Positions 331 to 51,470 of a stretch of 51,548 bases of DNA are shown piece after piece. How positions within the stretch are numbered: position 1 is the stretch's first letter; every line of letters begins with the position of its first letter. The position numbers and the translations under genes are program-made. The DNA is taken from the sequence record NC_079180.1, one strand, 5' to 3'. A model generated the notes under the pieces. That model was not told the DNA's origin. It ran no database searches and was given only the letters and a program-made list of their open reading frames with translations. Source of the DNA: Escherichia phage SKA49.

Positions 331-2445
331 ATGACTAACGAAGAATACCGTGCACTGGCTGCTGATGGCGCTCGCTTGAAAGAAGAAGGCCAAGGTTGGA
401 AAGACGTGCTCGATACGATGGACCGTTGCAACCAGATGGTAGATGAAATCACCTCCGTTACACAAACCGAAACTAAAACCGAAACTAAATTGGAGACTCG
501 CAAAATGACAACTATCTCAACTCAAACTATCAAATCCGTTGTCCCTGCTATCACTGCTCTGGTATATCGTGCCAAAGAGAAACAGAACTACATGCAGCCT
601 CAGACCTGTGCTATTGCTGCTCTTGCAATCTTTAAGATGATGACCTCATTCACTCGTGATGACGTTGTTCCTGCCATTGCGATGGTTGAGCTGGCTTCTG
701 CTTCTATTGCTGATGCCAACCGCTACAACAACGACTTGAAAGCAATGCACTATGTTGACCCAGCTATCAACCTCATTGGTCTGGCTAAGCACTTCGGCTT
801 CATTACCATGAACGAAGACAAGTCATTCCAACAGACTGACACATGGGTTGAACTGGTTACAACCAAAGACACAGCAGTGCCATTCACTGAGCGTGTTACA
901 TCTGAATCTCGTCGCAAGCCTTTCGTTAAAGGTGGCAAAGTTAAGCCATCCAAAACTTTGAAAGCTGCAATCGAATTCCTGCAAGATACTGAGTACCATG
1001 TGGAGACTGAGATGGTTCGCATCATCCAGTCCATGATTGAACAGCGTACTTATGGTGGCTTGCAGATGCCAGAAGCAATCCAGACTGAACTCCATGTTTG
1101 GAACAATGCTGTAGCAATGATGAATCAGGACACACTGTATTCTGACTACTTTGCTGACAACCGTGGTCGCCTGTATCATGTAGCATGTGCTGGTCCTAAC
1201 CCACAATCCTCTGACTTTGCTCGTTGCTTGTATTCTCACAATGTTGAGAACATCGTTAAGAAGTTTAACGAAGATGGTTCTACTACCATTGCATACAACA
1301 TGTTCATGGCAGAGCTGGAAGATATTTCCGGTGGTGAATGGTGCAGTGCTAAACGTCTGACCTATGTTGCTCAGAATCCAGCTGGTTCACTTGCTCGCAT
1401 GATGAACATGCCTAAAGCTGAACGTCCTTCTAAGCCATTCACTTATGTTCGTCTGGCTCTGGATTGGTTCAAGTTTGAGACTACAGGTGAATGCGATTCT
1501 CGTGTAGGCTTTGGCTTAGATGCTAAATGTTCTGGTACTCAATATCTGGCATTCATTGCTGGTAACATGGAAATGGCTCGTGCAACAGGTCTGGTTGATT
1601 CTGAGACTAAAGCATCTGACCCATACCAGTTGAGTCTTCGTGAACTGTTGAAGCTGCTGGACAAGTCTTCAATGAAACCTTCTGTTGAAATCATGGATGA
1701 ATTCTTGAACCCTAAAGCTGGTCGTAAGTTTATCAAAACTCCGTACATGGCTATTCAATATGGTGGTGGTAAAGCTGCATTAACTGGTTCATCTGACTTC
1801 ATTAGCTACATGACAGAAGCGCTCCAGATTCCTATGGAGAAAGCTGAGGCATTTGCTGAACTGTGTGTAGAAGCAATCCATAACGCATTGGGTGCTAAGA
1901 TTAACATGTTCATCGAGAAAGCTGCTGATGCTGCATACAACCGTTGTGTTGAACTCAACAAAGAGTACATCACATATCGTCACACTGATGGTCAGGTTGT
2001 AATGAAGCCTTGCTTCCCATCTCGTGAAATCTGTGAGGCATTCAGCATTCGTGTTGACTCACAAACTCGTGTTATCTTTGGCCAGATTCAGGAGAATAAG
2101 CCTTGGACCATTCGTGAATCCAATCCAACTAAAGAAGAATTCAAGCGTACTTTCGTTGTTAACTACATTCAAGGTATTGACGCATTGGTTGCTCGTACTG
2201 TTGCAGTTAAGGCTAAAGAAGCTGGTCTTCGTGGCTTCACTTCAATCCATGATTGTTTCCGTTGCTGTCTGGCAGATGCTCCACGTATGATGGAAGTTAT
2301 TCGTGCAGCATATGTTGAAATCTTTGTAACCAACAATCAATTCGAGAATCTGTCTAAGCAACTCGGTGGCATTCAGATGTATCATGAGAACATCGTAACC
2401 GAAGAGCTTCTGATGAGCGAACACGCTTACTACTTCTGTCAATAA
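331..2445 (+). CDS. T7-type single-subunit DNA-dependent RNA polymerase (compact, 704 aa)
   Basis: Motif A-like FGLDAKCSGTQYLA, motif B-like GRKFIKTPYMAIQYGGG, motif C TSIHDCF with catalytic Asp; GGAG RBS before ATG. Confidence 0.85.
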   Translation: MTNEEYRALAADGARLKEEGQGWKDVLDTMDRCNQMVDEITSVTQTETKTETKLETRKMTTISTQTIKSVVPAITALVYRAKEKQNYMQPQTCAIAALAIFKMMTSFTRDDVVPAIAMVELASASIADANRYNNDLKAMHYVDPAINLIGLAKHFGFITMNEDKSFQQTDTWVELVTTKDTAVPFTERVTSESRRKPFVKGGKVKPSKTLKAAIEFLQDTEYHVETEMVRIIQSMIEQRTYGGLQMPEAIQTELHVWNNAVAMMNQDTLYSDYFADNRGRLYHVACAGPNPQSSDFARCLYSHNVENIVKKFNEDGSTTIAYNMFMAELEDISGGEWCSAKRLTYVAQNPAGSLARMMNMPKAERPSKPFTYVRLALDWFKFETTGECDSRVGFGLDAKCSGTQYLAFIAGNMEMARATGLVDSETKASDPYQLSLRELLKLLDKSSMKPSVEIMDEFLNPKAGRKFIKTPYMAIQYGGGKAALTGSSDFISYMTEALQIPMEKAEAFAELCVEAIHNALGAKINMFIEKAADAAYNRCVELNKEYITYRHTDGQVVMKPCFPSREICEAFSIRVDSQTRVIFGQIQENKPWTIRESNPTKEEFKRTFVVNYIQGIDALVARTVAVKAKEAGLRGFTSIHDCFRCCLADAPRMMEVIRAAYVEIFVTNNQFENLSKQLGGIQMYHENIVTEELLMSEHAYYFCQ

Positions 2446-2453
2446 GAGAAACA

Positions 2454-2525: not shown

Positions 2526-3300
2526 GCAATATTGCTGCATGTAATATTGTTTCAATATTCGACATTAGTTGGATGTGAAGTAACAGAATACGGAGAAGTA
2601 TTCCGCATGTCATGTTGAATCATTCTAGAAACATTCAGCATGTCAGCTTTGAGTTACAGCGTTGTAATGATGTGGCAATCATTGAACTCCCTGGGAAGGC
2701 CACCTACAGTTCCAGCAACCATGACTTAGAGTAGGAATATCTATCCGAAACTTGGACTTCATTGTAGTTTGGTGTGCTTCATCGTGAGAAAGGTAGCGAC
2801 AACTTTCATAAGCAAATAGCATGACTCATTCCAGACAAACTTGGAACAGCTCATGTAGTACCAGCATGTTCAATTGCGACAATATTGCTCCATCTCCTAT
2901 TATAAAGGCCCACCCACAAGCCGGGAGATAACTTTGGTAATATTGGAACTTTTGGACATGCTTCTTTCTTTCAATCAGAATTCGAAAGAAGAGAAGAGTC
3001 GGAGCAAAGCCTCTCGTTTACACGCAGAAGCCGCCCCGATTTTGAGCAACAAATATTGTGACAATATTGTCGCAGTATGGCATGTAAATATTGCTACAAA
3101 TTGGCATGTTAGAATGTGGCAGAATTGTTAGAGGACTAATCACCTCGAAGATACAATCGTCTGCCAATCTGGCATGTTAATTTTGTAACAGTATTTGTGC
3201 CAATTTCGCATGTAGTATTTAACCCAATATTCTTGCAACCCGCATGAATACTGGCTTTCAGCCAAGCGAAGGCTTTATCATCGCATGTAATATTGTGACA
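2526..3300. repeat. cluster of AT-rich palindromic motifs (CAATATTG, GACAATATTGTC) and GCATGTAATATTG-like repeats
   Basis: CAATATTG or near copies at about 2527, 2545, 2877, 3049, 3058, 3087, 3294, 3302; (G/C)GCATGT(A/T)A-TATT at about 2536, 3080, 3102, 3169, 3205, 3282. Confidence 0.5.
2562..2580 (+). promoter_or_regulatory. phage promoter-like motif ACATTAGTTGGATGTGAAG
   Basis: Conserved about 19-bp motif in an intergenic position, one of eight copies. Confidence 0.55.
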
Positions 3301-25710: not shown

Positions 25711-25730
25711 TATCTTATTCGGAGTCGCTT

Positions 25731-32358: not shown

Positions 32359-32364
32359 TAAATA

Positions 32365-32384
32365 GGGCGGGACTGTTCTCGCCC
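32365..32384 (+). terminator. stable hairpin GGGCGGGA-CTGT-TCTCGCCC after capsid gene
   Basis: 8-bp stem including one G-T pair; no T-run. Confidence 0.4.
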
Positions 32385-32404
32385 ATAACTTAAGAGAAAT
32401 AGTA

Positions 32405-33594: not shown

Positions 33595-34103
33595 TTTACG
33601 ATGAAGATATTCAGGCGATTAAGGATATTGTGGACGTCTGTGTGGGCGTCCCACGCTTCTCCTATGAGATGCAGGTAAACGCACCTCGACCATCTGATAA
33701 CTATGCCGCAATAAAGTGTGTGTCGTCAGTTAATCCAGGCTTTGATGAAACTCGAATCGAAGTCCGTAATGGCGAGGAGGTATTTGTTACGAGAGGGATT
33801 CGAATTCTAACTTTCTATATTCTCTTCTCACGTCGTGGGAGTGAATATGTTAAGTTCGACAATTCCTTCTTCCGTCCAGATGTTCAGGCCATGCTTAAAA
33901 GTAAAGGCTTTGCAACACTCGACAAAAATCCACTGAATCTTGCCTCGTTAACTCTTGAGACGAATTGGGAATTCCGAGAAGGAATCCAAATCAAATTCAA
34001 TGTTCTGCGTGAAGACGTAATGAATATTGGAACAATGTCTGACGCCAGTGTTGGCGGCAAATTCTATGATGGTGGTGAACCCATCCTAATTAAGGGAATC
34101 TAA
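33591..34103 (+). CDS. tail completion/neck protein (putative)
   Basis: Track ORF, position only. Confidence 0.45.
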   Translation: MIYDEDIQAIKDIVDVCVGVPRFSYEMQVNAPRPSDNYAAIKCVSSVNPGFDETRIEVRNGEEVFVTRGIRILTFYILFSRRGSEYVKFDNSFFRPDVQAMLKSKGFATLDKNPLNLASLTLETNWEFREGIQIKFNVLREDVMNIGTMSDASVGGKFYDGGEPILIKGI

Positions 34104-35552
34104 ATGGCAATTCCAATTTCCGATATCATCCAGGTCAACATTGCGGTATCTCCGAATGCTGTTGCCGTGGAAGGTTTTGGTCCTCTGCTCTTTCTTTCGA
34201 AGGAGTTTAAACCGACTGCTGCCGAAGTAGTTCCTGTTCGTCAATATACGAGCATGGCTGCGGTGTCTGCGGATTTCCCATCCGGTGAAATCTATAATGC
34301 AGCTTTGGCGTGGTATTCTCAGAAACCTACTCCGAAATATTTCCTGGTTGGTGCAATCACTCATGAAGACGTGGTTCCTGCAACTGCTGGCACTATCACT
34401 GCTTCTACTGCTGCAAACCTGGACGACATTAAGGCTGTAACCTCTGGTGTAATTTCCATCAACATCAACGGCGTTGATATGCACACTGGTGCTATCAACT
34501 TCTCTACCGTAACAGACTTTGCTGGTGCTGCTTCTGCAATGACTGCTGCATTCGTGACTGCTGGCATTCCTGCAACCGTCTCCCAGACTACTGGTGTGTT
34601 CAAAATCACTACCAACCTGACTGGCGACACTGCTGTTATCGGTGATGTATACGGCACTGCTGCAAGTGCTTTCAAGCTGGATGCAAACTCAAGTCCAGTA
34701 TTTGCCCAGGGTAAAGACGAACAGTCTATTGGTTCTGACCTGTCTGCAATTCTGAACTCCACTTACAACTTCTTCTTCGTTGCTATTGACCGTAAGTACC
34801 GCGGCGGCGCCTCTGGTGATAACCAGATGACTGTTGCTAAGTGGGCAGAAGCGAACGAGAAAGTGTTCGGCTGGGCTGACAGTGACCCGCAGATTCTGGT
34901 TGTTGGTGCAGAGTCTAGCTTTAAGCGCGCCAAAGAACAGAACCTCCAGCGTACCTTGCTGGTTTATGATGCGTCTGATAATGGCGACGAATATCCAGAA
35001 ATCTCCATCCTTGGTCGTGCATCAACTGTCAACTTCAACGTTGCAAACTCTTCGCTTGTCCTGGCGTTCAAACAGGGTCCGGCTATCAAGACTGCTGACC
35101 TGTCTCCGAACCAGCTTGCTGCCCTCGAACGTGTAAATGGTAACGCATTCATCAACGTTGGTGGGAACACTATGTTCTACAACGGCAAGATGGCTGACGG
35201 CACTTGGTTCGATACCGTTCAGGGTGTGTCTTGGCTGACCTCCAAGATTCGTGCGAACGTGTTCAACCTGTTCTATACCTCCACTACCAAGATTCCTTGG
35301 ACGGATACCGGCGTTGCCCTGGTCAACCAGCAAGTAACTCTGGCACTGGAACTGGCTGTAACCAATGGTCTGATTGCCCCAGGTTACGACAATGAAGGCA
35401 ACTTCTACCCAGATGGCTACAAAGTCTTGTCTACCGACTTGGCTCTGATGCAATCTCAGAAAGGTGCTCGAATCTGGGAAGGTACTTCCTTCATTGCAAT
35501 TGGCTCTGGCGCATTGCAGGGTGCAGTTATCTCCGGCAACTTCGTTCAGTAA
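34104..35552 (+). CDS. tail sheath protein
   Basis: 482 aa, host-optimal codons, directly before tube, chaperone and tape-measure genes. Confidence 0.6.
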   Translation: MAIPISDIIQVNIAVSPNAVAVEGFGPLLFLSKEFKPTAAEVVPVRQYTSMAAVSADFPSGEIYNAALAWYSQKPTPKYFLVGAITHEDVVPATAGTITASTAANLDDIKAVTSGVISININGVDMHTGAINFSTVTDFAGAASAMTAAFVTAGIPATVSQTTGVFKITTNLTGDTAVIGDVYGTAASAFKLDANSSPVFAQGKDEQSIGSDLSAILNSTYNFFFVAIDRKYRGGASGDNQMTVAKWAEANEKVFGWADSDPQILVVGAESSFKRAKEQNLQRTLLVYDASDNGDEYPEISILGRASTVNFNVANSSLVLAFKQGPAIKTADLSPNQLAALERVNGNAFINVGGNTMFYNGKMADGTWFDTVQGVSWLTSKIRANVFNLFYTSTTKIPWTDTGVALVNQQVTLALELAVTNGLIAPGYDNEGNFYPDGYKVLSTDLALMQSQKGARIWEGTSFIAIGSGALQGAVISGNFVQ

Positions 35553-35563
35553 GGGTGCGATAA

Positions 35564-36019
35564 GTGAAACAATATTCTTTCTATAATACCGACCTCATTA
35601 TCGACGGTGCTCGCGTAGATGGTTTTACCTCTGGTAACGCCATCATCACTGCTCGTCGTAATGCACCTCAGCACCTGCCAGTGATTGACGCGTATGGTAA
35701 GTTGGCTGTGGCTACCACGGCTGACTTGTCTGGTACTATTACGTTCCCGCTTCTGCAAACCGCAGACTGGAACGAAATCCTATACAACCGTGCTCAGCTC
35801 ACTCAGGCAACTGGCTTGTCTGGCAATAAATCTTTGTGGACTCCACTACAGATTCAAATTGTTGACAAGATGGGTGATGTGCTGGTCAATGGTGTAAACG
35901 GCGCTATCTTGCAGCAACCTGCAATTCAGCGTGGTGTGTCCTTCACGTCTAACGTGTGGTCTATCTTTGTAGAGCGCCTCCAGATTAAGACTGGTTCTTA
36001 TCCGGAAATTGGCGTTTAA
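35564..36019 (+). CDS. tail tube protein (GTG start)
   Basis: 151 aa between sheath and chaperone genes. Confidence 0.55.
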   Translation: MKQYSFYNTDLIIDGARVDGFTSGNAIITARRNAPQHLPVIDAYGKLAVATTADLSGTITFPLLQTADWNEILYNRAQLTQATGLSGNKSLWTPLQIQIVDKMGDVLVNGVNGAILQQPAIQRGVSFTSNVWSIFVERLQIKTGSYPEIGV

Positions 36020-36030
36020 TTGGAGTAAGT

Positions 36031-36489
36031 ATGGCTTGTGAATTGCTTCAACGTGAATTCACAAACTCCAAAGGCGAAACAGTGTTAGTCGTTGTTCGAC
36101 AATTGTCGGCTTCGGCTGCACTGTCTCTTCACGCGGAGTTGGTAAGCAAGTTAGGCTCACGAGTATTTCCATTCATCGAAGGTAAATATAACTTCGCTGA
36201 TATTATATACTTGATGCAGCAAGTAGAGCATACCGTATTCACAGAATTGTTTAAGCGTGTTATCAGCATGCACTCGTCCATAGACGGACAAGAAATCAAA
36301 CCTGCATTATATGATATGCAGTTCAATGGCGAATTGATGTTGTCTTGCCATGTCTTTGCTTTCGTGCTCGAAGCAAACTTCCTTGATTTTTTCAAGCAAG
36401 GGCTCGAAATCCACGAACAGAGACGATTGGAGGCGGAGGAAGCATCCAAGCTGGCAGAGCAGAAGAATTCGAGTCCGGAGACAGTTTAG
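36031..36489 (+). CDS. tail assembly chaperone (zero-frame product)
   Basis: Position between tube and tape-measure genes; contains slippery site near 3' end. Confidence 0.55.
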   Translation: MACELLQREFTNSKGETVLVVVRQLSASAALSLHAELVSKLGSRVFPFIEGKYNFADIIYLMQQVEHTVFTELFKRVISMHSSIDGQEIKPALYDMQFNGELMLSCHVFAFVLEANFLDFFKQGLEIHEQRRLEAEEASKLAEQKNSSPETV

Positions 36490-36665
36490 TATCCCTGTTC
36501 CCCGACATAAAATATTTTCTGCATCGTCCTATAATCGAAGACAGTTCTCTCTGCAAGTTACGTGAATTGCAAGATGGAACCTATTCGATTATGGACTTAT
36601 TGCTATTCCACGACATTCTCGATTTGCGTAAGAAACTCGAACCAGTAGATGAAGACAATGGCTAA
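36031..36665 (+). CDS. predicted -1 frameshift product of tail assembly chaperone (G-T / E-E'-like)
   Basis: Slippery heptamer T_TTT_TTC at 36387-36393; -1 frame stop TGA 36384-36386 immediately upstream; -1 frame open for 93 codons to TAA 36663-36665, overlapping the tape-measure start. Confidence 0.5.
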
Positions 36666-39600
36666 TCAAAAAGATTTAATGAAGTTGAGCGTTAATGAGT
36701 TAATTGCATTAGGCTCTCAAAGCGGTCTGACTTTCCATGCTGGTATGAAGAAGTCGCACATGGTTCAACAACTTAGTGCGAGCGCTGCTTCGGGATGGCT
36801 GGATACAAATGCAGAATTAATGGGTGGGTCGTTTGAAGATGACAGTTTAATTACTGAATCTTTGGGCGACTCTTCCATGATTTCAGACGCTGCCCACATT
36901 GCACAAGTGCTTTCAAGTGCTGGCTACACAGAAGCATTTCATGCAGCAATGAATGGCCCAACACACCATGTAGAAGCTGTTCACGCATACATGGAAAGGC
37001 TTGGTGTCAACACAGATGATGTGTGGATGCACATGCCAAAGCCAAATCCGAACTTACCGCAAGGTAGCTTCAACATGCTTAATGCCTATATGCGAGATAC
37101 TTTGCAAGGGCATCAAGATATTATGCCAGAAATCCCAGGCCACTATGCTGGGGATATTATGGCTGAATACTCCACCAACCGTGGAAACATTGCTGACTCA
37201 TATAACTACATGGCTCACATGTATGTTGACCGTGAGCAATACAGCAATCATGAACAATACGCAAGAGACATTAGTCGAGTTGCCAAACGTCTGGAACAAG
37301 AGTTACCCGCAGCCTTTAAGGAAGTTGGGTATACCTCGGCCTCTAATGTAGGAAATAAATCGGCCCCACATATTTCTTACATGGATGCACTTCCTCAGAT
37401 TGGTTCTCCTTCAATTGTTTCTGGCATTGCACATCCTCGTGCACCTCTTAACGCATCTGGACTTCCTCTTGGTTCTTATGGTTCTGGCATAAATCCAGAA
37501 TACTCCCTCACTGCATCATTAACTGGTGGCACTGGTTGGAGTGAACCAAGCAAGGCTTTATATTCCTCTATTAGTGAAGCTGTTAAATCTGCTGCCAAAG
37601 TTTATTCTGGTTCCAAAGGGATGATGAATACTCGTCACGAAGTATCTGACCGTGACATGATTATGGACAGCGCAACTCGCTATACAGATTTGGAAGAAGC
37701 CAGAAGCGGGTACGAAAACCTTCGTTCTGAACTTGCAGATGAACCGGCTTATTCTGCATCGAGTGTTCGAGCTATTCTCGAAAACACTTATGACAAAATG
37801 GATTCCGAACCTGTTCGCATTCCAAAGATGAAGGGAGCATCTCAGCGAGTCGAAAAAGATTCGCAATCAACATCTACAGAATTTACAGCACAACTTGGAG
37901 AGGCCACCAATTGGAACTCTGCAAGAATGCGTCGTGAGGAAATTGCGATTGCAAATATGGATAGTGCTGGATTCCGTGATGTATCAGACTATGGTACAGG
38001 ACGTTCCGAGTCTCCCGTCAGATTCCATGACTTAGAACAGGGCAGCCAAGAGTGGCTAGACTTCCGTAAAAACTATGACATAACTGGTTCAACTGTTGGA
38101 ACTTTCTTAGGAAACAACCCATACACCCGACCTTGGGCGGGAATGATTGACAAGATTGGTCTATCTCGTAGTAAAGAGCACAGCGATTTCACTAAGAAGA
38201 TGTTCGCTGATGGTCACAGGACGGAAGAAGAAGCACGCGCTCGTGTTGGTAAGGAATTTGGATTCGATATCAAACAAACTGGCGCTATAACAAATGACAA
38301 CTATCCCGCCTTCATGTATTCTCCTGATGGTCTTATTGGCGATGATGCCATTTGGGAGCACAAGAATCCGCAAAGGGCTGGTAAGTTTGCTGACCTTCTT
38401 AAAGGCGACCATCCAGATTACATGGACCAAATTCAATTTGGTATGCACGTTTCTGGCCGTTCTCGTGCTTTGTTCTCACAAACCATCAACGACGAAACAC
38501 GTTCACAGTGGATTGAGAAGGACGAAGGATGGTACGAGAGAAACAGAAATCGCCTTGATTCTGTTCTTGGCCGTCTTGATGCTGGGCGAGAGTTTGTTAG
38601 AAACAATGCTGGACTAGACCGAGAAGAACTGATTGCTGGTGCAAGAAGTGCAATGACTGGTGATGGTATCTGGAAGGATATTCGTCAAAGGTCAACTCGT
38701 GGCTACTCTGCCATTGCTGGAACTCCAGAAGACCCATTTATTGGTTCACGTTCTTCGTACAATCCAAAGGCATCATATTCTGACTACCAGCCAAACTTTG
38801 TAATGCACGAGCAAAACTTTCCAGCAACCACAGGAAACGGTGATACTGGAAACGACTCGATGGCATTGTCTGTTAAGAAAGGTATCCTTGCTGCTCAGGA
38901 AGAAAACAGGCAGAAGGGTATTGGTGCAGATGCAGACTTTAATGGCAAAGCCGATTCAATGGGTTGGGACCGCGAAAGATTTGATGCTGCCAATGGCGGT
39001 GGATATTCTGGCGGTGGTGGTGGTCGTGGCGGCAACTTCACAAGCGGTGGCAACTACTATGATGACTACGGTCGCATGGGTGGTTCACTAGCTGCTGGCA
39101 TTGCTGGAGGTAGTATTGGTTCAGCAACCAACGGAGTTATGCAAGCATTAATGGCAACTCCTGCGGGACGTATGGCTGCTGTAGGCATTGGTGCTATTCA
39201 GATTGGCAATGAAGCTGCTGAATACATGAATGACTTTATCGGCAACTCGCTTGATGCTGGCGTGATAAATCCTAATGAATACTCTTCTATGTCGCAAGGC
39301 TTGGAGATGTTAGGACTCAACTCACAACAAGCGGCACGTCTGAATCAAACCACACATAGTGCCTACAACACCATGCTTAACGGCGACCCCAGCGCCGCTG
39401 TGAACATCGTTCGCGGCAGTAGGGGATTGCTCACCATAGGTGATATTCGTGCGACAGGCGGCGACCCTGTGGCCCTAGCTCGCATCATGCAGGAAAGGGG
39501 CAAGGAGCGTGGCTGGAGTCAGGCCCGTATCGCAGGTGCTGCCGAAATGGCTGGCCTGAATGGGATGGCGCGAGCCTACGACCGCACGGAATACAGCCAT

Positions 39601-40374
39601 GAGCAAGCTGGTTCGGTGGTAGAAGCGGGTAGAAACTCTGACTTTGCCGAAGGTATGGCCCAGTCGGAAATGTTGCAGGGAAGCCGCGCACGGATGCTGC
39701 CGAGCTACAACGTGCCACAAAGTGTCTTATCTAACGGTGCTTCCGTATTCGAGGCTGGCAGTGATTCACTTGATAGTGTACGCACTGGATTCAATAATAC
39801 GCGAGAATTTGCTGGAAGTGTTTACGACTTTATCGCCCAGGAAGAATCTGGCGGTCGTGAATATAACAAAGATGGTTCTCGTGTAACAAGTCGTACTGGT
39901 GCTCGTGGGATAATGCAGATTCTTCCTTCAACAGCTCGTGACCCAGGATTTGGAATCAGGCCGTCTGATGGAACTCCGGAAGATGATGCACGAGTTGGTC
40001 GTGAATATTATGACGCAATGTACAAGCGTTATGGCGACCACGAAAAGGCAATGGCTGCTTACACCGATGGTCCTGGAACTGTTGACAAAGCTGTTGATAA
40101 GAATGGGCTGGATTGGCTAACTGCTGTTCCTGTACAAGCACAGAATCGCGTCAAAGCATTCCGTGAATGGGCCAAGTCTTCTCAGACTTTGGAAGAAGGT
40201 GCTACAGGGTTTACTCGCAATGGAATGTCGTACGGTCAAACCCAAACTGTTGTTAATGTTAAGATTGATGCTAAGGTCAACAACCAGACTGCTTCTGCTA
40301 CAGTGGCAATTCCTGGTGGTCAGACTGTGACTCAACAAATGAACATGCACAATGGTGCGCAACAAAGAAGATAA
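36649..40374 (+). CDS. tape-measure-like large virion protein with C-terminal lytic transglycosylase domain
   Basis: Transglycosylase motifs QEESGG, GARGIMQILPSTA, AYTDGPGTV; Gly-rich segment; N-terminal Rho_N-like LSVNELIALGSQSGL; mid-region YqaJ-like motifs ITGSTVG...NPY, EHKNP, DQIQFGMHVSG. Confidence 0.6.
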   Translation: MKTMANQKDLMKLSVNELIALGSQSGLTFHAGMKKSHMVQQLSASAASGWLDTNAELMGGSFEDDSLITESLGDSSMISDAAHIAQVLSSAGYTEAFHAAMNGPTHHVEAVHAYMERLGVNTDDVWMHMPKPNPNLPQGSFNMLNAYMRDTLQGHQDIMPEIPGHYAGDIMAEYSTNRGNIADSYNYMAHMYVDREQYSNHEQYARDISRVAKRLEQELPAAFKEVGYTSASNVGNKSAPHISYMDALPQIGSPSIVSGIAHPRAPLNASGLPLGSYGSGINPEYSLTASLTGGTGWSEPSKALYSSISEAVKSAAKVYSGSKGMMNTRHEVSDRDMIMDSATRYTDLEEARSGYENLRSELADEPAYSASSVRAILENTYDKMDSEPVRIPKMKGASQRVEKDSQSTSTEFTAQLGEATNWNSARMRREEIAIANMDSAGFRDVSDYGTGRSESPVRFHDLEQGSQEWLDFRKNYDITGSTVGTFLGNNPYTRPWAGMIDKIGLSRSKEHSDFTKKMFADGHRTEEEARARVGKEFGFDIKQTGAITNDNYPAFMYSPDGLIGDDAIWEHKNPQRAGKFADLLKGDHPDYMDQIQFGMHVSGRSRALFSQTINDETRSQWIEKDEGWYERNRNRLDSVLGRLDAGREFVRNNAGLDREELIAGARSAMTGDGIWKDIRQRSTRGYSAIAGTPEDPFIGSRSSYNPKASYSDYQPNFVMHEQNFPATTGNGDTGNDSMALSVKKGILAAQEENRQKGIGADADFNGKADSMGWDRERFDAANGGGYSGGGGGRGGNFTSGGNYYDDYGRMGGSLAAGIAGGSIGSATNGVMQALMATPAGRMAAVGIGAIQIGNEAAEYMNDFIGNSLDAGVINPNEYSSMSQGLEMLGLNSQQAARLNQTTHSAYNTMLNGDPSAAVNIVRGSRGLLTIGDIRATGGDPVALARIMQERGKERGWSQARIAGAAEMAGLNGMARAYDRTEYSHEQAGSVVEAGRNSDFAEGMAQSEMLQGSRARMLPSYNVPQSVLSNGASVFEAGSDSLDSVRTGFNNTREFAGSVYDFIAQEESGGREYNKDGSRVTSRTGARGIMQILPSTARDPGFGIRPSDGTPEDDARVGREYYDAMYKRYGDHEKAMAAYTDGPGTVDKAVDKNGLDWLTAVPVQAQNRVKAFREWAKSSQTLEEGATGFTRNGMSYGQTQTVVNVKIDAKVNNQTASATVAIPGGQTVTQQMNMHNGAQQRR

Positions 40375-40380
40375 GGAGTT

Positions 40381-40406
40381 GGGGAGAAATCCCCAGCTTT
40401 CCTTTT
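40381..40406 (+). terminator. intrinsic terminator (GGGGA-GAAA-TCCCC then AGCTTTCCTTTT)
   Basis: GNRA tetraloop hairpin with T-rich tail directly after tape-measure stop. Confidence 0.55.
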
Positions 40407-40425
40407 ACATTAGTTGAACATGTAT
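40407..40425 (+). promoter_or_regulatory. phage promoter-like motif ACATTAGTTGAACATGTAT
   Basis: Immediately after terminator, 23 nt before baseplate gene 40448. Confidence 0.45.
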
Positions 40426-40447
40426 TAATTTCAATAGGTATATCGCA

Positions 40448-41542
40448 ATGCCGTGGATGCGCAGAGTTGAGATAATTGTTTCTCGTAAAGATGACCCAAG
40501 TGTGCAGACGATATTCAAATCACATCGAATTGATTTCGAAGTTCGTTCTACTGTTGGGTGGCCCGCCGATACGGCAAACGTAACTCTGTTCAACTTGTCT
40601 TTGGAAGAAGTTAAGTTCTTGCAGGATAAGTCCTATGGAGATATGTATATCGAAATTCGTGCAGGGTATGCAGAAGATGAACGTGGTGCTTCTTCTGGTG
40701 GCGTTAAAAACTACCGAAGGTCTGAATCTTCTAGCAATGTTATCGAAGTAAATACTTCACTGCCTACGCTATTCTCTGGGATAATTACAAACGCAGTTGG
40801 CTACAGAAAGCCCCCTGAACATATCACACAATTATTCTGCATTTCGAAAGCGTATGGTGCATCAACCGACTTCTCCCAAATGAGGGCAATCCCTACTGGC
40901 TCAACCTTGAAGGATGCTATTCGCTCTATGTGTTTGGACTATGGCTTCAATACCATATCCACATTTGGCGTAGAAGATGAGGTAATGAATCAAGTTATGC
41001 CTCGTGGTCGTGTGTTCCATGATACATTCCTAATTGAGTTTCGTGCGATGTTGGGAGAATACAATCTCCTGTTTTCTGTAACTACTGGTGAGGTACAGAT
41101 ATTCCCAGATACCTTTGGGGATAAAGATGCAGTAAACAGAATGTCCAAAGACCGTGAACCAATCAAGTTGGATGCCAACTCAGTTATTGGAAACCCTGTT
41201 GCTGGAATTTGTACCTACACACTTAGCACCTTCCTGAACCCAGCATACCAGCCAGGGATGATTCTTGATGTTTCACCGCTACTGGGAACTCAGCTCCTTG
41301 CAAATGGTGTGACGGCAATACAGGGCGATGGCGTTGTTCTTAACACCGACCAATCTGTATTCCGATGGGCTGTTGAAGATAAATACTTCATCATGGAAGT
41401 TGTTCATAAAGGTTCTACACACGCCATTGATTATAAGACTTCCATCACTGCAATACTTGGTGGCAATACTATGATGGGTGGTAAAGAGGCTGCGTGGCAA
41501 GAAATGTATGCCAATAGTGGCATGGCTATGGAGTCATTCTAA
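40448..41542 (+). CDS. tail/baseplate protein (Mu gpN / P2 gpD-like position)
   Basis: 364-aa ORF directly after tape measure. Confidence 0.45.
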   Translation: MPWMRRVEIIVSRKDDPSVQTIFKSHRIDFEVRSTVGWPADTANVTLFNLSLEEVKFLQDKSYGDMYIEIRAGYAEDERGASSGGVKNYRRSESSSNVIEVNTSLPTLFSGIITNAVGYRKPPEHITQLFCISKAYGASTDFSQMRAIPTGSTLKDAIRSMCLDYGFNTISTFGVEDEVMNQVMPRGRVFHDTFLIEFRAMLGEYNLLFSVTTGEVQIFPDTFGDKDAVNRMSKDREPIKLDANSVIGNPVAGICTYTLSTFLNPAYQPGMILDVSPLLGTQLLANGVTAIQGDGVVLNTDQSVFRWAVEDKYFIMEVVHKGSTHAIDYKTSITAILGGNTMMGGKEAAWQEMYANSGMAMESF

Positions 41543-42444
41543 TGTCTATTTTCGATACAAACTTAGTTGATAGTGCTGCTGGTGTACTAAAGAACTTTAG
41601 CTACGGGCATCACCCTTCAATTGTTATGTGGTCCAACGGAGTAGTTGACCAAAAGGAAGATGATGAGTCTTTCCTTGGAAGCATAACTGGTGGCGTGTCC
41701 CGTGCACTGGAAAGTATCCCGCTTGTTGGTGATTCTCTTCCAGAAAGTTTTAGCTCTTTTAAGTTTGATGCAATGGTTAGTGAGGAACACGAAGCCGCAT
41801 CAACTGTAACCAAGTTTCCTGTAAGTTCTGGCTTTCTTGTCAGTGACCATGTTATCAACCAGAACCGGGTCTTGAAGTTAACTGCTGTTGCTGTCAACAT
41901 GCAAAACTCTTCAATGTGGTCTGCCTCACTACAGGGCTTGTCTGTAGCAACTGGTGCAATCTTCAACTCCCCAGCTTTGTCTGTTATGGGGAGTGCAATT
42001 GGCGCTGTTGCTTCAACATTTGAAACAAGCAACCGAATTCAATCAACCTATGATTTGTTTAACAATTTCCGAACGACAGGAAAGAAGCTCTACATATCCA
42101 CAATACTCGGCCCGTATCTGAATTGTGTAGTGACGTCAATCAAGGCGAAGCACGACAAGAACACTTCGGCAATGCTGGCAGTAGAGATTTTGTTGGAAGA
42201 GCTTCAAACAATAGGCACGGATGCCTTGGCGGTGGAAGCAAGAAAGGCAATGGAATCAATGTATGACTATTCCGACTTTGCCAAGACTGCAACAAACTTA
42301 GGCATGGGTGCGCTTGGTGGCGTTCCTCTCCCAGGATTGGGTGATGTATTTGGTGTATCTTCTGTGACACAACTTGCCAACCTTAAAGGCAAACTTGAGT
42401 TACTTAATTCTCCAGTATCTTCTGTTAAGGGTGTTCTCCTGTGA
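41542..42444 (+). CDS. baseplate hub protein (putative)
   Basis: Position between tape measure and spike genes. Confidence 0.4.
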   Translation: MSIFDTNLVDSAAGVLKNFSYGHHPSIVMWSNGVVDQKEDDESFLGSITGGVSRALESIPLVGDSLPESFSSFKFDAMVSEEHEAASTVTKFPVSSGFLVSDHVINQNRVLKLTAVAVNMQNSSMWSASLQGLSVATGAIFNSPALSVMGSAIGAVASTFETSNRIQSTYDLFNNFRTTGKKLYISTILGPYLNCVVTSIKAKHDKNTSAMLAVEILLEELQTIGTDALAVEARKAMESMYDYSDFAKTATNLGMGALGGVPLPGLGDVFGVSSVTQLANLKGKLELLNSPVSSVKGVLL

Positions 42445-42809
42445 CAAACGCTGAAACACAAGCACAGGCATTTAATGAAATCATTAGCCTTCTTCCTACA
42501 GGCTACGTGAAGACTGTCCCGTTTGATGTTTCCAAGGATGTATCCTTTGAGTTCTCTGGCGTCACAGTTAAAATGTCTGCCCTTTATTTAAACACGTATT
42601 TGAACTGCTACATGTTTGACCTGGCCTGGGGAGCGACGAATAAAATATTCGGAATCCCCATCCGTTGTGGTATTGACATTCTTGAACAATACTCGACGCC
42701 ACTTCCAAACATGTATGCAACAAATACGATATTCCCTGGACAAGAGGTTGTGAGCTACAAGCAACTTTCTCTGTTCATTATTGATGCGAGTGTTCTTGAA
42801 CGTGGCTAG
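42441..42809 (+). CDS. baseplate-associated small protein (GTG start)
   Basis: Track ORF. Confidence 0.4.
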   Translation: MTNAETQAQAFNEIISLLPTGYVKTVPFDVSKDVSFEFSGVTVKMSALYLNTYLNCYMFDLAWGATNKIFGIPIRCGIDILEQYSTPLPNMYATNTIFPGQEVVSYKQLSLFIIDASVLERG

Positions 42810-43596
42810 TCATAACAACAATCAAAATGCTCCAGATATTAATACCAGTTATCCAGGGCATATCTACAACTTTGATGCTGTAACGCAAACGTGTGAAGTA
42901 CAACTTGCAATAGAAAACTTGTTTGTTGGATATGCAGAAGCGTATTCATTACAACCTAAACAAAGATTGCAAGGAGTTCCGGTTCAATTCATTCAGGGTG
43001 GTGGGTGGAGTTTGACTCACCCTGTTCCTGACGGTACTCCATGCTATGTACACTTCTCACAGCGTGGTATCGACCACTGGTTATCAGAGAACAAGGATGC
43101 TGCTGGAATGATTGGTTCAAGACCTTCACCAGCATTCAGTCAACTGTTCTCGCACAATGCTGCCGTATGTACGATTGGTACTCAGCCGATTCCAAAAGTT
43201 ATTGCCGGATTTGCTGGTGATGTTACAGAACTTCGTAATGCAGACAGAAGCCAGCGACTGACAATGCACGCAAGTGGTTTAATTGAAATCATTACGGGTG
43301 CTGCCAAAATTCAAATCACGAAAGATTCGGAGATTTTAATTGAAGTTACGTCGCAAGCAACAGTTAAAGCGCCGCAGATTACTCTGGACGGCGACACAAC
43401 AGTCACCAAATCATTAACTGTTTTAGGTGGCATGGCTGTATCTGGAACCAAGAATGGTTCTACTGCAACGTTCACTGGCAACTTCAAGATGGACGGCAAC
43501 ATGACTCAAACTGGCTCCCTCACCCTTAATGGTATTAAGGTTGATGGTCACACCCACACTAACCCAGAAGGCGGCGATGTTGGGCCGATGAAATAA
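42784..43596 (+). CDS. baseplate central spike protein (gpV-like)
   Basis: C-terminal IKVDGHTHTNPEGG His-x-His tip; in frame with track ORF 42781..43596. Confidence 0.55.
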   Translation: MRVFLNVASHNNNQNAPDINTSYPGHIYNFDAVTQTCEVQLAIENLFVGYAEAYSLQPKQRLQGVPVQFIQGGGWSLTHPVPDGTPCYVHFSQRGIDHWLSENKDAAGMIGSRPSPAFSQLFSHNAAVCTIGTQPIPKVIAGFAGDVTELRNADRSQRLTMHASGLIEIITGAAKIQITKDSEILIEVTSQATVKAPQITLDGDTTVTKSLTVLGGMAVSGTKNGSTATFTGNFKMDGNMTQTGSLTLNGIKVDGHTHTNPEGGDVGPMK

Positions 43597-43967
43597 TGGC
43601 TGGTAATTTAGCTTTAGATTCAAACCACGACATTATTATTGGGCGTGGTGCAACACGTATATCGGGGGCCGCTCAGGTGGCCCAACTGGTTAAGTGCAGA
43701 CTGTTAACATTATTTGGCGAGTGGGCTTTGGATGACACTATCGGTCTTCCTTGGTATGAGTCCATATTCACCAAACAGGTTCGTGTATCCGATATAGAAT
43801 CCGCTGTTGCAAACATTATTCGTGGCACTGCGGGAGTTCAGCAACTCTTGTCTATTGACATTGATGCTGACTTCCGAACTCGCCAACTTAATATTTCATT
43901 CGTAGCCATCTCTGACTATGGCGATATTTCGGAAACTGTAACATGGCTACAATACAGTATGGCGTAA
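43596..43967 (+). CDS. baseplate wedge protein (gpW/gp25-like)
   Basis: 123 aa, directly before J-like gene; LTLFGEW...D..GLPW pattern. Confidence 0.5.
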   Translation: MAGNLALDSNHDIIIGRGATRISGAAQVAQLVKCRLLTLFGEWALDDTIGLPWYESIFTKQVRVSDIESAVANIIRGTAGVQQLLSIDIDADFRTRQLNISFVAISDYGDISETVTWLQYSMA

Positions 43968-45100
43968 CAGAAGACGGGTTTGTAAGAAAGCCCGTTACAG
44001 AAGTTGTTAAAAGTCTTAATAACAAATTCATTGCAGCGTTTGGTGCTAACTTCGATGTAAGTCCTGAATCCCCAGATGGGCAGGTTATCGGAATAGTTGC
44101 TGACGAAATCGCAACATGCTGGGAGCAAGCTCAGCAAGTATTTAACGCATATCGACCTGGCGCTGTTGAAGGAGTCGGACTTGATAACGTTTGCGAACTT
44201 ACCAATACTAAGCGATATGTTAATAAACCATCCCAAGCAACTGTGTATTGCGACGGTACTGTTGGCACTTTGGTTCCTGCTGGCTCGCTTGTTAGTGATG
44301 GTAGTCGTCAGTTTAGGCTAGATACTGATGTAACCTTACCTGGTGATGTTACCGTTATCGCAACAGAGCCTGGAGAGTATTACATTGCTGCTAATACAAT
44401 CATTAACATAGTGACACCTATTGCTGGCTGGACTTCTGTAACCAACCCAACAATTGGTACAACTGGTATTGACTATGAATCAGACCCAGAACTCCGAGCA
44501 CGCCGTGACAAAACAACGGCAGTCAATTCAGCCACGACAGCAGAAGCCATCTATGCTTCACTCGCTGACCTTGATATTGATTACATTCGTGTTCGTGATA
44601 ATGATACCGATGCTGCTATTGGCAGTCAGCCTCCAGGCACTGTCTTTGTTGTAGTTGATGGCGGCACAAGTAACGATATTGCTCGACGCATTTATAATGC
44701 CAAAACTGGTGGTGTTCCTACTCATGGTGACATTGAAATCACAATCAATGACTCTCGTGGCTACCCGCACCCAATCAAGTTCAGTCGGCCAGTTCGTACC
44801 CCAATCTTTGTCAAAGGTACTTTCCGTCGTCGTTCTTCTGCAAACATTAGTTCCAATGATGCTGCTGAAAGATTGCGAGAAGCTGCCATTGCATATTTAA
44901 ACAGCTTACAGCCTGGTGATGATGTAGTTTGGTCAAACATGTTTGGGCCGATTATGTCTGCCGTGCAATATATTGAAGTTGATTCGTTGTTCATTGGCCT
45001 GTCTGCAAATCCGACAAGCACTGCAACAATTGAACTCGACATTGATAAGCGCGCCCAAGGTCTGGAAGCTAATATCAAATTCACTGACGTAACGGTGTAA
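43943..45100 (+). CDS. baseplate J-like protein
   Basis: 385 aa, position in baseplate module. Confidence 0.6.
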   Translation: MATIQYGVTEDGFVRKPVTEVVKSLNNKFIAAFGANFDVSPESPDGQVIGIVADEIATCWEQAQQVFNAYRPGAVEGVGLDNVCELTNTKRYVNKPSQATVYCDGTVGTLVPAGSLVSDGSRQFRLDTDVTLPGDVTVIATEPGEYYIAANTIINIVTPIAGWTSVTNPTIGTTGIDYESDPELRARRDKTTAVNSATTAEAIYASLADLDIDYIRVRDNDTDAAIGSQPPGTVFVVVDGGTSNDIARRIYNAKTGGVPTHGDIEITINDSRGYPHPIKFSRPVRTPIFVKGTFRRRSSANISSNDAAERLREAAIAYLNSLQPGDDVVWSNMFGPIMSAVQYIEVDSLFIGLSANPTSTATIELDIDKRAQGLEANIKFTDVTV

Positions 45101-45101
45101 C

Positions 45102-45743
45102 ATGGCTACTAAACATGGCTTGGAGATGTTGTTATCTCAGTATTACAACTCGCCAAACTTAAAGAAGTATATTTCAATCTTTGTTGAAGAGTTTGCGGAA
45201 GTTAAACAAGCCATGTCCGATTCTGTAAAGTATCGCTACCTTGCAGATTCCTTTGGCGTCATGGTTGACGACATTGCCTATATTGTTGGCACTGAACGTG
45301 TAATCTACGGCGCCGAAGCTCTCGGATACTTTGGCTTCTATCGTGACCCGTCTGCATTCCCAGCTGGGGATGACAACGACCCAGATATTGGCGGCATACT
45401 TAAGTCCGATTATGATAAAGATTCTGGCGACTTTATTCGTACAGACTTGCAACTTAAGAATGCTATCAAGGCCAGGATTACCAAAATCACTGGCAACTGT
45501 AATATCGAGCAAATCATTACATACCTTGAGCTTCTAATTGGGCGTGACTTAGACCTTGAAATCAAAGAAGGGTTTAAGCGTATGGACTACATTGTCCACG
45601 AAAGTTTGTCTGTTGCTGATAAGGTTATGCTGGCCCACACGATTCCACAATTTAAACCTGTGGGAATCACTGTAACACTTCGAGATAATAATGGCGTTAT
45701 CGACCTGGTGTTCAGTTCTAAAGACTACCCGCCGGAGACATGA
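45102..45743 (+). CDS. baseplate protein (gpI / Mu gp48-like)
   Basis: 213 aa following J-like gene. Confidence 0.45.
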   Translation: MATKHGLEMLLSQYYNSPNLKKYISIFVEEFAEVKQAMSDSVKYRYLADSFGVMVDDIAYIVGTERVIYGAEALGYFGFYRDPSAFPAGDDNDPDIGGILKSDYDKDSGDFIRTDLQLKNAIKARITKITGNCNIEQIITYLELLIGRDLDLEIKEGFKRMDYIVHESLSVADKVMLAHTIPQFKPVGITVTLRDNNGVIDLVFSSKDYPPET

Positions 45744-48279: not shown

Positions 48280-48287
48280 GATTCAAA

Positions 48288-49361: not shown

Positions 49362-49369
49362 GGAAAATA

Positions 49370-49711: not shown

Positions 49712-49728
49712 AATGATAAGGAACTCGA

Positions 49729-51383: not shown

Positions 51384-51470
51384 TTGGGTACGGTGAAGGC
51401 TGACGTTTGTCAGTTAATATGTGAGAAGAGATTCGATGCGTTAGCGTCGTTTCTCTTTGAACTAGAATAA

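What the first reader, a model, noticed from the sequence alone, without database searches (positions are those of the whole stretch)
40381..40425. Back-to-back terminator and promoter-like motif between tape-measure and baseplate genes
A GNRA-loop hairpin with T-rich tail is followed immediately by a promoter-like motif 23 nt before the next gene, suggesting transcriptional re-initiation or a stoichiometry control point inside the tail operon.
Basis: seen in the sequence. Interest (0 to 1): 0.35.

Follow-up and report, generated by a model that had tools for sequence, protein, structure and literature searches.

The report
Conserved terminator–phage-promoter junction in tail genes
Between the tape-measure and baseplate-hub genes of this phiEcoM-GJ1-like coliphage lies an ordinary transcription stop hairpin, followed four bases later by a weak copy of the phage's own RNA-polymerase promoter; the pair is conserved across a phage subfamily, and the promoter half was already annotated as putative in 2008.

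Summary

- **Hairpin.** Directly after the tape-measure stop codon (40372-40374) there is an 11-pair hairpin with a GAAA loop (40375-40400) and a T-rich tail.
- **Promoter motif.** At 40405-40424 lies TTACATTAGTTGAACATGTA, 23 nt before the hub ATG (40448). It does not match the sigma-70 consensus. It is the ortholog of 'putative phage promoter 9' annotated in phiEcoM-GJ1, and a divergent member of a motif family with eight stronger plus-strand copies in the window.
- **Conservation.** Every Cleopatravirinae genus examined keeps the pair. The hairpin changes sequence but not structure: 9 of 10 pairs show compensatory changes, and loops are mostly GAAA or UUCG. The promoter-to-ATG block is better conserved than the flanking coding DNA.
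- **Absence.** Two more distant chaseviruses examined, BUCT696 (Nefertitivirinae) and ZPAH14 (Shantouvirus), have no spacer at all.

Best reading: a partial intrinsic terminator ends the head/tail-tube transcription unit, and a weak phage-polymerase promoter starts the baseplate/fibre unit.

Weak points: I found no transcript mapping for any chasevirus, and the promoter's score alone is barely above chance. This is an ordinary kind of element, of low to moderate interest.

The parts
36649..40374 (+). Upstream gene: 1241-aa tape-measure-position virion protein with a C-terminal lytic transglycosylase region; stop TAA at 40372-40374
   Evidence: ORF list. phrog_19855 covers the full length, and endolysin/transglycosylase families match aa ~1057-1214. 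Annotated 'tape measure protein' in Mangalitsa.
40375..40400 (+). Terminator hairpin: GGAGTTGGGGA / GAAA / TCCCCAGCTTT (11 pairs including G-U, GNRA tetraloop)
   Evidence: A hairpin is conserved at this position in all Cleopatravirinae relatives examined. In a 12-sequence alignment 93% of cells are paired and 9 of 10 pairs show compensatory changes, with 0 of 500 shuffles as high. Four further phages fold to a hairpin on their own.
40398..40406 (+). T-rich tail TTTCCTTTT (would be the U-tract of the terminator); overlaps the last stem bases and the first two bases of the promoter 20-mer
   Evidence: In 15 relatives the 12 nt after the stem are 52% T against 27% T genome-wide.
40405..40424 (+). 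Phage-RNAP promoter-family site TTACATTAGTTGAACATGTA, ortholog of phiEcoM-GJ1 'putative phage promoter 9'; divergent variant (TTGAA instead of TTGGA)
   Evidence: Annotation in EF460875 and OL960574; family in GJ1; family in the window; core TTAnTnGAAnnTG invariant or nearly so across 14 relatives.
40425..40447 (+). Conserved leader TTAATTTCAATAGGTATATCGCA with Shine-Dalgarno-like AGGT at 40436-40439, 8 nt before the ATG
   Evidence: The promoter-to-ATG block is 85-97% identical where flanking coding DNA is 65-76% identical. No significant RNA structure (z = +0.28). An RBS is annotated at the same spot in Mangalitsa.
40448..41542 (+). Downstream gene: baseplate hub (364 aa), first gene of the baseplate/tail-fibre block that runs tightly packed to 51383
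   Evidence: phrog_196 baseplate hub, E = 1.9e-49; ORF coordinates.
51426..51457 (+). Next terminator-like hairpin on the + strand in a spacer (AAGAGATTCGATGCGTTAGCGTCGTTTCTCTT), after the last gene; probable end of the unit started at 40405-40424
   Evidence: The ORFs of 90 aa or more from 40448 to 51383 abut or overlap (largest gap 17 nt), leaving no room for a spacer hairpin.
331..2445 (+). [quoted passage not shown]
   Evidence: phrog_414 RNA polymerase, E = 1.2e-97; N-terminal comparison with GJ1 and Myduc.
2557..2580 (+). Representative consensus member of the promoter family (ACATTAGTTGGATGTGA, 0 mismatches). Other members have 24-nt PWM windows starting at 246, 3503, 6990, 10330, 10472, 12461 and 20305, with a further candidate at 25891

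Best explanation

Termination: RNA made through the head, sheath, tube and tape-measure genes folds into the GAAA-loop hairpin (40375-40400). At the following U-rich stretch a fraction of polymerases, phage or host, terminate. This works like T7 T-phi, which is hairpin-dependent and deliberately leaky.

Re-initiation: four bases after the stem, a divergent and probably weak copy of the phage promoter (40405-40424) recruits free phage polymerase. That polymerase starts a new transcript around 40420-40426, carrying a short conserved leader and Shine-Dalgarno sequence. The transcript covers the baseplate hub, baseplate, tail-fibre and last genes up to the hairpin at 51426-51457.

Net effect: expression of the baseplate/fibre block is set partly by its own promoter instead of only by read-through, and the weak promoter is shielded from occlusion by incoming polymerases.

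Shown: the sequence elements, their membership in a repeated motif family, structure-preserving evolution of the hairpin, and sequence-preserving evolution of the motif and leader. Inferred: that the hairpin terminates, that the motif is a promoter, the start site, and the quantitative effect.
For: - **Genome identity.** 82-89% nucleotide identity to Carltongylesvirus phages. An RNAP gene is present.
- **Prior annotation.** The orthologous 20-mer is annotated 'putative phage promoter 9' in phiEcoM-GJ1 and in SA91KD, also 23 nt before the hub gene.
- **Motif family.** The window has 8 plus-strand copies within 3 mismatches of ACATTAGTTGGATGTGA, against 0.21 expected. The site at 40402 keeps all the highest-information positions (CATTAGTTG.A..TG).
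- **Cross-genus family.** The same motif family occurs in PM1, Myduc and Y2. PM1's junction site carries the GTAG variant that two other PM1 sites share.
- **Hairpin.** Its stability is among the best few in the genome. It has a GNRA loop and a T-rich tail and begins one base after the stop codon.
- **Covariation.** 93% of cells are paired, 9 of 10 pairs show double changes, and no shuffle or slid register comes near. Loops are GAAA or UUCG in 12 of 15 distinct variants.
- **Tails.** The tails stay T-rich, 52% against 27%.
- **Contrast in constraint.** Hairpin sequence is 55-59% identical, while the promoter-to-ATG block is 85-97% identical, in relatives whose flanking genes are 65-76% identical.
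- **Published precedent.** T7, T3 and SP6 polymerases terminate at RNA hairpins, and in those genomes terminators lie as little as 14 bp from a start site (PMC11347151). T7's natural terminator is 62% efficient in vivo (PMC9157156).
Against: - I found no transcript 5' or 3' end mapping for any chasevirus. The ICTV profile states that chasevirus promoters 'have not yet been identified' (PMC12842549).
- The PWM score of the site (15.1 bits) is barely above the best chance hits (14.6 and 14.0). About 20% of shuffled genomes contain a hit that good.
- The site has A where the other family members have a near-invariant G (TTGAA against TTGGA).
- The U-tract is interrupted (UUUCCUUUU here, worse in GJ1, PM1 and L008), so termination may be weak.
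- Conservation extends through the whole leader, more than a promoter alone needs.
- Two more distant chaseviruses (BUCT696, Nefertitivirinae; ZPAH14, Shantouvirus) do without the spacer entirely, so the module is not essential to this gene order.
Confidence: 0.65

Rival explanations
1. The promoter is real, but the hairpin is not mainly a terminator. Instead it acts as a 3'-end protective or processing stem that stabilises the upstream head/tail message against 3'-5' exonucleases, or as a pause site.
For: The U-tract is interrupted or short in several relatives (GJ1 TTACTTTAAC, L008 TCTACTTAAA, PM1 CTCTACTTAA). A similar hairpin without a T tail follows the major capsid gene at 32365-32384. 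Covariation shows only that the RNA (or single-strand) structure matters, not what it does.
Against: The tails are nevertheless consistently pyrimidine- and T-rich (52% T). Stable GNRA and UUCG tetraloops on 9-11 bp GC-rich stems directly followed by T runs are the classic intrinsic-terminator form. The stem is too short for an RNase III substrate, which needs about two helical turns (established knowledge). A protective 3' stem needs some event to create the 3' end there, and termination is the simplest.
Confidence: 0.15
2. The conserved 39-nt block is not a promoter. It is a translation-initiation or regulatory leader for the hub gene, for example a binding site for a translational regulator. 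The hairpin is a leaky attenuator inside one long late transcript, and the resemblance to the promoter family is partly fortuitous.
For: The PWM score is at background level (15.1 against 14.6 and 14.0; 0.23 hits per shuffled genome). There is a G-to-A change at a near-invariant family position. Conservation covers the entire leader down to the Shine-Dalgarno sequence, well beyond the annotated 20-mer. In Myduc the motif sits only about 8 nt from the ATG.
Against: The positions that stay invariant across 14 divergent relatives (TTA.T.GAA..TG) are the high-information positions of the independently trained promoter PWM. PM1's and Y2's junction sites share variants (GTAG, TTTA) with other promoter-family sites in the same genome. 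The leader shows no significant structure. A hit this good in plus-strand spacers (my rough figure of about 5 kb in all) is expected only about 0.01 times. That estimate scales the 0.23 hits per 103 kb.
Confidence: 0.15
3. The motif is a host sigma-70 promoter, the generic meaning of 'promoter-like'.
For: TTGAAC (40414-40419) and TATTAA/TATATC-like hexamers are present.
Against: The consensus scan finds no sigma-70-like site in 40375-40447. The possible hexamer pairs have 13- or 19-nt spacers, or a -10 lacking the key A2 or T6. One arrangement would start transcription downstream of the ATG (read from the sequence).
Confidence: 0.03
4. Chance co-occurrence of a hairpin and a motif, with no function.
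For: The terminator-like scan overall finds no more hits than in shuffles (15 against 15.8). The motif score alone is marginal.
Against: Both elements are retained at the same junction in Carltongylesvirus, Suwonvirus, Myducvirus, Loessnervirus, Faunusvirus and unclassified metagenomic relatives, with compensatory stem changes.
Confidence: 0.02

Closest known systems
'Putative phage promoter 9' of Escherichia phage phiEcoM-GJ1 (GenBank EF460875, 41980-41999; Jamalludeen et al. 2008), re-annotated in vB_EcoM_SA91KD (OL960574)
   Same: Orthologous site. It lies at the same junction (tape-measure-position gene to hub gene), at the same 23-nt distance from the ATG, and 17 of 20 bases are identical (TAACATTAGTTGAATATGTA against TTACATTAGTTGAACATGTA).
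   Different: Those records annotate only the promoter, as a prediction, and do not annotate the hairpin. The closest relative, Mangalitsa, annotates neither element in this spacer. The 2008 paper itself could not be read here.
Bacteriophage T7 T-phi terminator after gene 10, with late promoters further downstream; SP6 terminators with start sites as close as 14 bp
   Same: A single-subunit phage RNAP, a hairpin plus U-run terminator placed inside the late (structural) gene block, leaky by design, with re-initiation at a phage promoter downstream (PMC9157156; PMC11347151). The placement of T-phi after the T7 capsid gene is from my own knowledge.
   Different: Here the host phage is a myovirus. 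The terminator follows the tape-measure gene rather than the major capsid gene. The promoter starts 4 nt after the stem. The promoter sequence (CATTAGTTGGATGTGA family) is unrelated in detail to T7 or SP6 promoters. Nothing here is experimentally mapped.
Bacterial intrinsic (Rho-independent) terminators
   Same: A GC-rich 9-11 bp stem, a stable GNRA or UUCG tetraloop, a T-rich tail, and a position just after a stop codon.
   Different: The U-tract is interrupted by CC. The polymerase expected late in infection is the phage enzyme, not the host enzyme.
Predicted phage-RNAP promoters of Pectobacterium phage PP101 and other Chaseviridae
   Same: [quoted passage not shown]
   Different: These are predictions only. 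I could not see from the text whether a site at the tape-measure/hub junction is among them.

Membership tests
[quoted passage not shown] | The genome encodes a single-subunit RNAP | tested here: met
   ORF 331..2445 matches phrog_414 RNA polymerase, E = 1.2e-97. An RNAP is annotated in GJ1, Myduc, PM1 and Y2.
[quoted passage not shown] | A roughly 17-20 nt motif repeated on the coding strand far more often than chance | tested here: met
   Eight plus-strand copies within 3 mismatches against 0.21 expected, and none on the minus strand.
[quoted passage not shown] | This particular site matches the family consensus | tested here: inconclusive
   It has 4 mismatches to the 17-mer. The PWM score is 15.1 bits against 21.8-31.3 for the training sites scored with the same PWM (9.8-26.4 when each is left out in turn) and 14.6 for the best background hit. 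Shuffled genomes give 0.23 such hits each.
[quoted passage not shown] | Intergenic, correctly oriented, shortly upstream of a gene or gene block, and conserved there in relatives | tested here: met
   23 nt before the hub ATG. The core is kept in 14 divergent relatives. The block is better conserved than flanking coding DNA.
[quoted passage not shown] | A primary transcript 5' end, or RNAP-dependent initiation in vitro | not testable with these tools
   Full-text searches found no chasevirus transcript-mapping study, and none of the chasevirus papers I opened reports one. The ICTV profile says the promoters are not yet identified.
Intrinsic (hairpin-dependent) transcription terminator | A stable GC-rich stem-loop | tested here: met
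   Eleven pairs with a GAAA loop; -18.0 kcal/mol in 32 nt, the extreme 0.02% of windows.
Intrinsic (hairpin-dependent) transcription terminator | A U-rich tract immediately 3' of the stem | tested here: met
   TTTCCTTTT (7 T of 9, interrupted). Relatives have 52% T in 12 nt against 27% background, with variable quality.
Intrinsic (hairpin-dependent) transcription terminator | Sense orientation at the end of a gene or operon | tested here: met
   The stem begins one base after the TAA of the 1241-aa gene, on the same strand.
Intrinsic (hairpin-dependent) transcription terminator | Structure under selection (covariation) | tested here: met
   Nine of 10 pairs have compensatory changes; 93% of cells are paired against 39-54% in slid registers; 0 of 500 shuffles reach the observed value. 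Caveat: the rows were centred on each sequence's own loop.
Intrinsic (hairpin-dependent) transcription terminator | RNA 3' ends or a drop in read-through at the site | not testable with these tools
   No transcript data available.
Sigma-70 promoter | -35 and -10 hexamers with a 16-18 nt spacer | tested here: not met
   No site in 40375-40447 passes the 9-of-12 consensus scan.
Any curated RNA family (Rfam 15) | A covariance-model match at or above the gathering score | tested here: not met
   Only two chance-level matches: sraA 20.3 bits and SIB 16.9 bits, each against a gathering score of 56.

The most novel reading that the evidence does not exclude
The junction site may represent a separate, specially regulated class of chasevirus promoter rather than just a weak copy. 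Its TTGAA variant is kept in almost every genus, and its 25-nt leader is more conserved than the neighbouring protein-coding DNA. That pattern could mean the baseplate/fibre unit is switched or timed by a factor that reads the leader or the variant promoter. Candidates would be a phage-encoded modifier of RNAP specificity or a translational regulator. In that case the adjacent terminator would serve to make the unit fully dependent on that switch.
Probability: 0.12. Interest if true: 0.45.

Novelty: new member of a known kind. Interest (0 to 1): 0.22.

Why it matters
This is mainly an annotation gain.

- It gives a well-supported transcription-unit boundary in the late region of Chaseviridae. 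The ICTV profile still states that the promoters of this family are unidentified.
- It shows by comparative evidence that the 2008 'promoter 9' prediction is under selection, together with a terminator that is not annotated in the four relatives' records I inspected here (GJ1, SA91KD, Mangalitsa, Myduc).
- The covarying hairpins and the promoter variants from several genera are ready-made test substrates for anyone characterising the chasevirus RNA polymerase, for example as an orthogonal expression system.

It does not change how phage transcription is understood. Leaky hairpin terminators followed closely by phage promoters are known from T7 and SP6-type phages.

Tried and rejected
- **Sigma-70 reading.** Rejected by the scan and by hand inspection of the hexamers and spacers.
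- **Known RNA family.** Nothing in Rfam.
- **Structured leader or riboswitch-like element downstream of the motif.** The fold of 40422-40500 is no better than shuffles (z = +0.28).
- **General rule that every phage promoter is preceded by a hairpin.** Only weakly supported (mean -14.3 against -11.0 kcal/mol; Mann-Whitney p = 0.03, or 0.09 without this site), so not claimed.
- **RNase III site.** The stem is too short (established knowledge), so not pursued.
- **Polymerase hand-off from terminator to the adjacent promoter by sliding.** Disfavoured, because T7, T3 and SP6 polymerases leave the DNA completely at terminators (PMC11347151).
- **16-sequence hairpin alignment (A3).** MAFFT shifted three rows by one column, so the covariation count rests on the 12-sequence alignment A2. 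The four extra phages were checked by individual folds.
- **The primary paper on phiEcoM-GJ1.** Not available in the library.
- **Transcript mapping for chaseviruses.** Searches for transcript data and for promoter or terminator descriptions found no transcript mapping, only predictions.

Full report
**What the window is**

The 1.4 kb around the finding is 82-89% identical to Escherichia phages Mangalitsa, flopper, ST32 and phiEcoM-GJ1. These belong to the genus Carltongylesvirus, family Chaseviridae. [quoted passage not shown] In the window, ORF 331..2445 matches phrog_414 'RNA polymerase' with E = 1.2e-97.

The gene upstream of the finding (36649-40374, 1241 aa) sits where a tape-measure gene would. 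It carries a C-terminal lytic-transglycosylase region and is annotated 'tape measure protein' in Mangalitsa. The gene downstream (40448-41542) is a baseplate hub (phrog_196, E = 1.9e-49). All long ORFs lie on the plus strand.

**Checking the observation**

The sequence reads as follows:
- TAA stop at 40372-40374.
- GGAGTTGGGGA (40375-40385), GAAA (40386-40389), TCCCCAGCTTT (40390-40400).
- Tail TTTCCTTTT (40398-40406).
- TTACATTAGTTGAACATGTA (40405-40424), then 23 nt, then ATG at 40448.

The hairpin is the top terminator-like hit, with 11 pairs, in 32000-51548. The scan as a whole finds no more hits than shuffles do (15 against 15.8), so it is not evidence by itself. Folding 40360-40450 gives -22.3 kcal/mol, z = -3.17. 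A 32-nt sliding fold of both strands gives -18.0 kcal/mol here, a value reached by 19 of about 103,000 windows, which on the plus strand fall in six places including this one.

No sigma-70-like site lies in the spacer, and there is no Rfam match.

**What the motif is**

In phiEcoM-GJ1 the orthologous 20-mer (TAACATTAGTTGAATATGTA, 23 nt before the hub gene) is annotated 'putative phage promoter 9'. SA91KD carries the same annotation. GJ1's nine annotated sites share the pattern xAACATTAGTTGGATGTGAA.

The window has eight plus-strand copies within three mismatches of ACATTAGTTGGATGTGA, at 251, 2562, 3508, 6995, 10335, 10477, 12466 and 20310. The chance expectation is 0.21, and there are none on the minus strand.

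The site in question has four mismatches. A PWM trained on the eight copies gives it 15.1 bits, which is rank 10. Rank 9 is a further candidate at 25891, just before the terminase gene. The score is only just above the best background hits (14.6 and 14.0 on the gene-less strand). Shuffled genomes contain 0.23 hits that good, and 20% contain at least one. On score alone the site is therefore marginal.

It does keep every high-information position of the family (CATTAGTTG.A..TG). The differences are TTGAA in place of TTGGA and the bases after TG.

**Comparative evidence**

I collected the junction from relatives in several ways:
- the hub protein in viral and metagenome contigs;
- tblastn against phage records;
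- annotated regions.

Every Cleopatravirinae relative has the same order of elements: stop codon, tetraloop hairpin, pyrimidine/T-rich tail, [A/T]TTA[G/T]T[T/A]G motif, short leader, start codon. This covers Carltongylesvirus, 4HA13, Suwonvirus PM1, Myducvirus, Loessnervirus Y2 and Fifi44, Faunusvirus, the unclassified Aeromonas phage phiA050, and several uncultured contigs.

*Hairpin.* Its sequence is almost completely replaced between lineages:
- GAGTTGGGGA-GAAA-TCCCCAGCTT
- GGTGTCGGGA-TTCG-TCCCGGCATC
- GGCGTCAGTC-TTCG-GGCTGGCGCT
- AGTGCGGGGC-TTCG-GCCCCGTGCT
- GGAGGTTGGGC-GAAA-GCCCACTTCC

On a gap-free 12-sequence alignment, 93% of cells pair and 9 of 10 pairs show changes on both sides. No shuffle of 500 reaches the observed values, and slid registers give only 39-54% pairing. 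One caveat is that I centred each row on its own loop.

Loops are GAAA or UUCG in 12 of 15 distinct variants. Tails are 52% T against 27% genome-wide.

*Motif and leader.* The contrast with the hairpin is informative. In relatives whose flanking coding DNA is 65-76% identical to the window, the hairpin plus tail is 55-59% identical, whereas the 39 nt from the motif to the ATG are 85-97% identical. So the hairpin is constrained in shape, and the motif and leader are constrained in sequence. Across 14 divergent relatives the invariant or nearly invariant columns are TTA.T.GAA..TG.

*Same family in other genera.* PM1, Myduc and Y2 each carry the same promoter family elsewhere in their genomes. 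PM1's junction site has a GTAG variant shared with two other PM1 sites, and Y2's has the TTTA variant seen in other Y2 sites.

*Absence.* In BUCT696 (Nefertitivirinae) and ZPAH14 (Shantouvirus) the two genes overlap (TAAATG) and there is no spacer.

**Mechanism**

The best reading is a leaky intrinsic terminator that ends the unit containing the terminase, head, sheath, tube and tape-measure genes. That unit would be fed by the sites at 20310 and probably 25891. Four bases later a weak phage-polymerase promoter starts the unit 40448-51383. The genes in that unit abut or overlap, leaving no room for spacer hairpins, and it ends at the hairpin 51426-51457.

Hairpin-dependent termination is shared by T7, T3 and SP6 polymerases. 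After it, the enzyme leaves the DNA and re-initiates from solution. In those genomes terminators lie 14-1742 bp from the nearest start site (PMC11347151). T7's natural terminator is only 62% efficient in vivo (PMC9157156).

By analogy, the module would decouple baseplate and fibre expression from upstream read-through and protect a weak promoter from occlusion. The start site (about 40420-40426) and all quantitative effects are inferred.

The stoichiometry argument is plausible for sheath and tube against baseplate. It does not explain why the low-copy tape-measure gene lies upstream of the terminator.

**Rivals**

- The hairpin is a 3'-end stabiliser or pause site rather than a terminator (0.15).
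- The conserved block is a translational or regulatory leader rather than a promoter (0.15). This is supported by the marginal PWM score and by conservation running through the whole leader. It is opposed by the agreement between the invariant columns and the high-information positions of the PWM.
- Sigma-70 promoter (0.03).
- Chance (0.02).

The leader has no significant predicted structure (z = +0.28). Hairpins upstream of the other family members are only weakly enriched (p = 0.03-0.09), so I do not claim a general rule.

**What is known, and novelty**

The promoter half has been a GenBank annotation since the 2008 phiEcoM-GJ1 paper, which I could not read. PP101 authors likewise 'hypothesised' eight consensus promoters (PMC6989608). 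The ICTV profile says chasevirus promoters 'have not yet been identified' (PMC12842549).

The ST32 paper does not use the words 'promoter' or 'terminator' at all. The Mangalitsa announcement reports a single predicted terminator for the genome and no promoters. Mangalitsa annotates neither element in this spacer.

The terminator and its covariation are not annotated in the four relatives' records I inspected here (GJ1, SA91KD, Mangalitsa, Myduc). Even so, the element is a standard kind, and close terminator-promoter pairs are known in SP6 and T7-type phages.

Verdict: real, conserved, functionally plausible, and ordinary. It is a new member of a known kind, with interest about 0.2.

Noticed in passing
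window 246-269 and 331-2445: A good promoter-family site (27 bits) lies upstream of the RNA polymerase ORF. Similar sites precede the RNAP gene in GJ1 (573, not annotated there), Myduc (174) and PM1 (186). This suggests the phage polymerase can transcribe its own gene. The window's RNAP ORF also has a 58-codon in-frame extension upstream of the start used in GJ1 and Myduc (probable true start at 505).
   Followed up: partly
window 25891-25914: A promoter-family candidate (CTCAGCCATTAGTGGATTGTGATT, 20.4 bits, rank 9) ends 22 nt before the terminase large-subunit ATG (25937). It overlaps the 3' end of a small Cys-rich ORF (25731-25915). Myduc has a comparable site 30 nt before its terminase gene. 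No promoter is annotated before the terminase gene in phiEcoM-GJ1, where an HNH endonuclease gene occupies that position.
   Followed up: partly
window 2453-2480: A strong terminator-like hairpin lies directly after the RNAP stop codon (GGGCTGTCATC-GAAA-GGTGATGGCCC followed by tctttattcttt; -19.5 kcal/mol), about 80 nt before the consensus promoter at 2562. Other hairpins in spacers are at 21348-21364, 25693-25711, 32365-32384 (right after the major capsid gene, no T tail) and 51426-51457.
   Followed up: no
window 40425-40447: The leader between the motif and the hub ATG is more conserved than the neighbouring coding DNA (85-97% against 65-76% identity), yet it has no significant predicted structure. 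The reason is unexplained.
   Followed up: partly
window 36649-40374 (aa 453-647): The tape-measure-position protein matches RecE/YqaJ-like exonuclease families (phrog_434, E = 8e-19) in its middle, in addition to the C-terminal transglycosylase. The homolog in Aeromonas phage ZPAH14 is annotated 'exonuclease / yqaJ'. This may be a shared repeat or coiled-coil region rather than an enzyme.
   Followed up: no
L031 (Aeromonas phage BUCT696) 380-386; L032 (ZPAH14) 323-329: In the Nefertitivirinae and Shantouvirus relatives examined, the tape-measure-position gene and the hub gene overlap (TAAATG) with no spacer. The terminator-promoter module is therefore specific to the Cleopatravirinae among the chaseviruses I looked at.
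   Followed up: yes
window 36031-36565: Overlapping ORFs 36031..36489 and 36350..36565 lie just upstream of the tape-measure gene. They have the layout of tail-assembly-chaperone genes that use a programmed frameshift.
   Followed up: no
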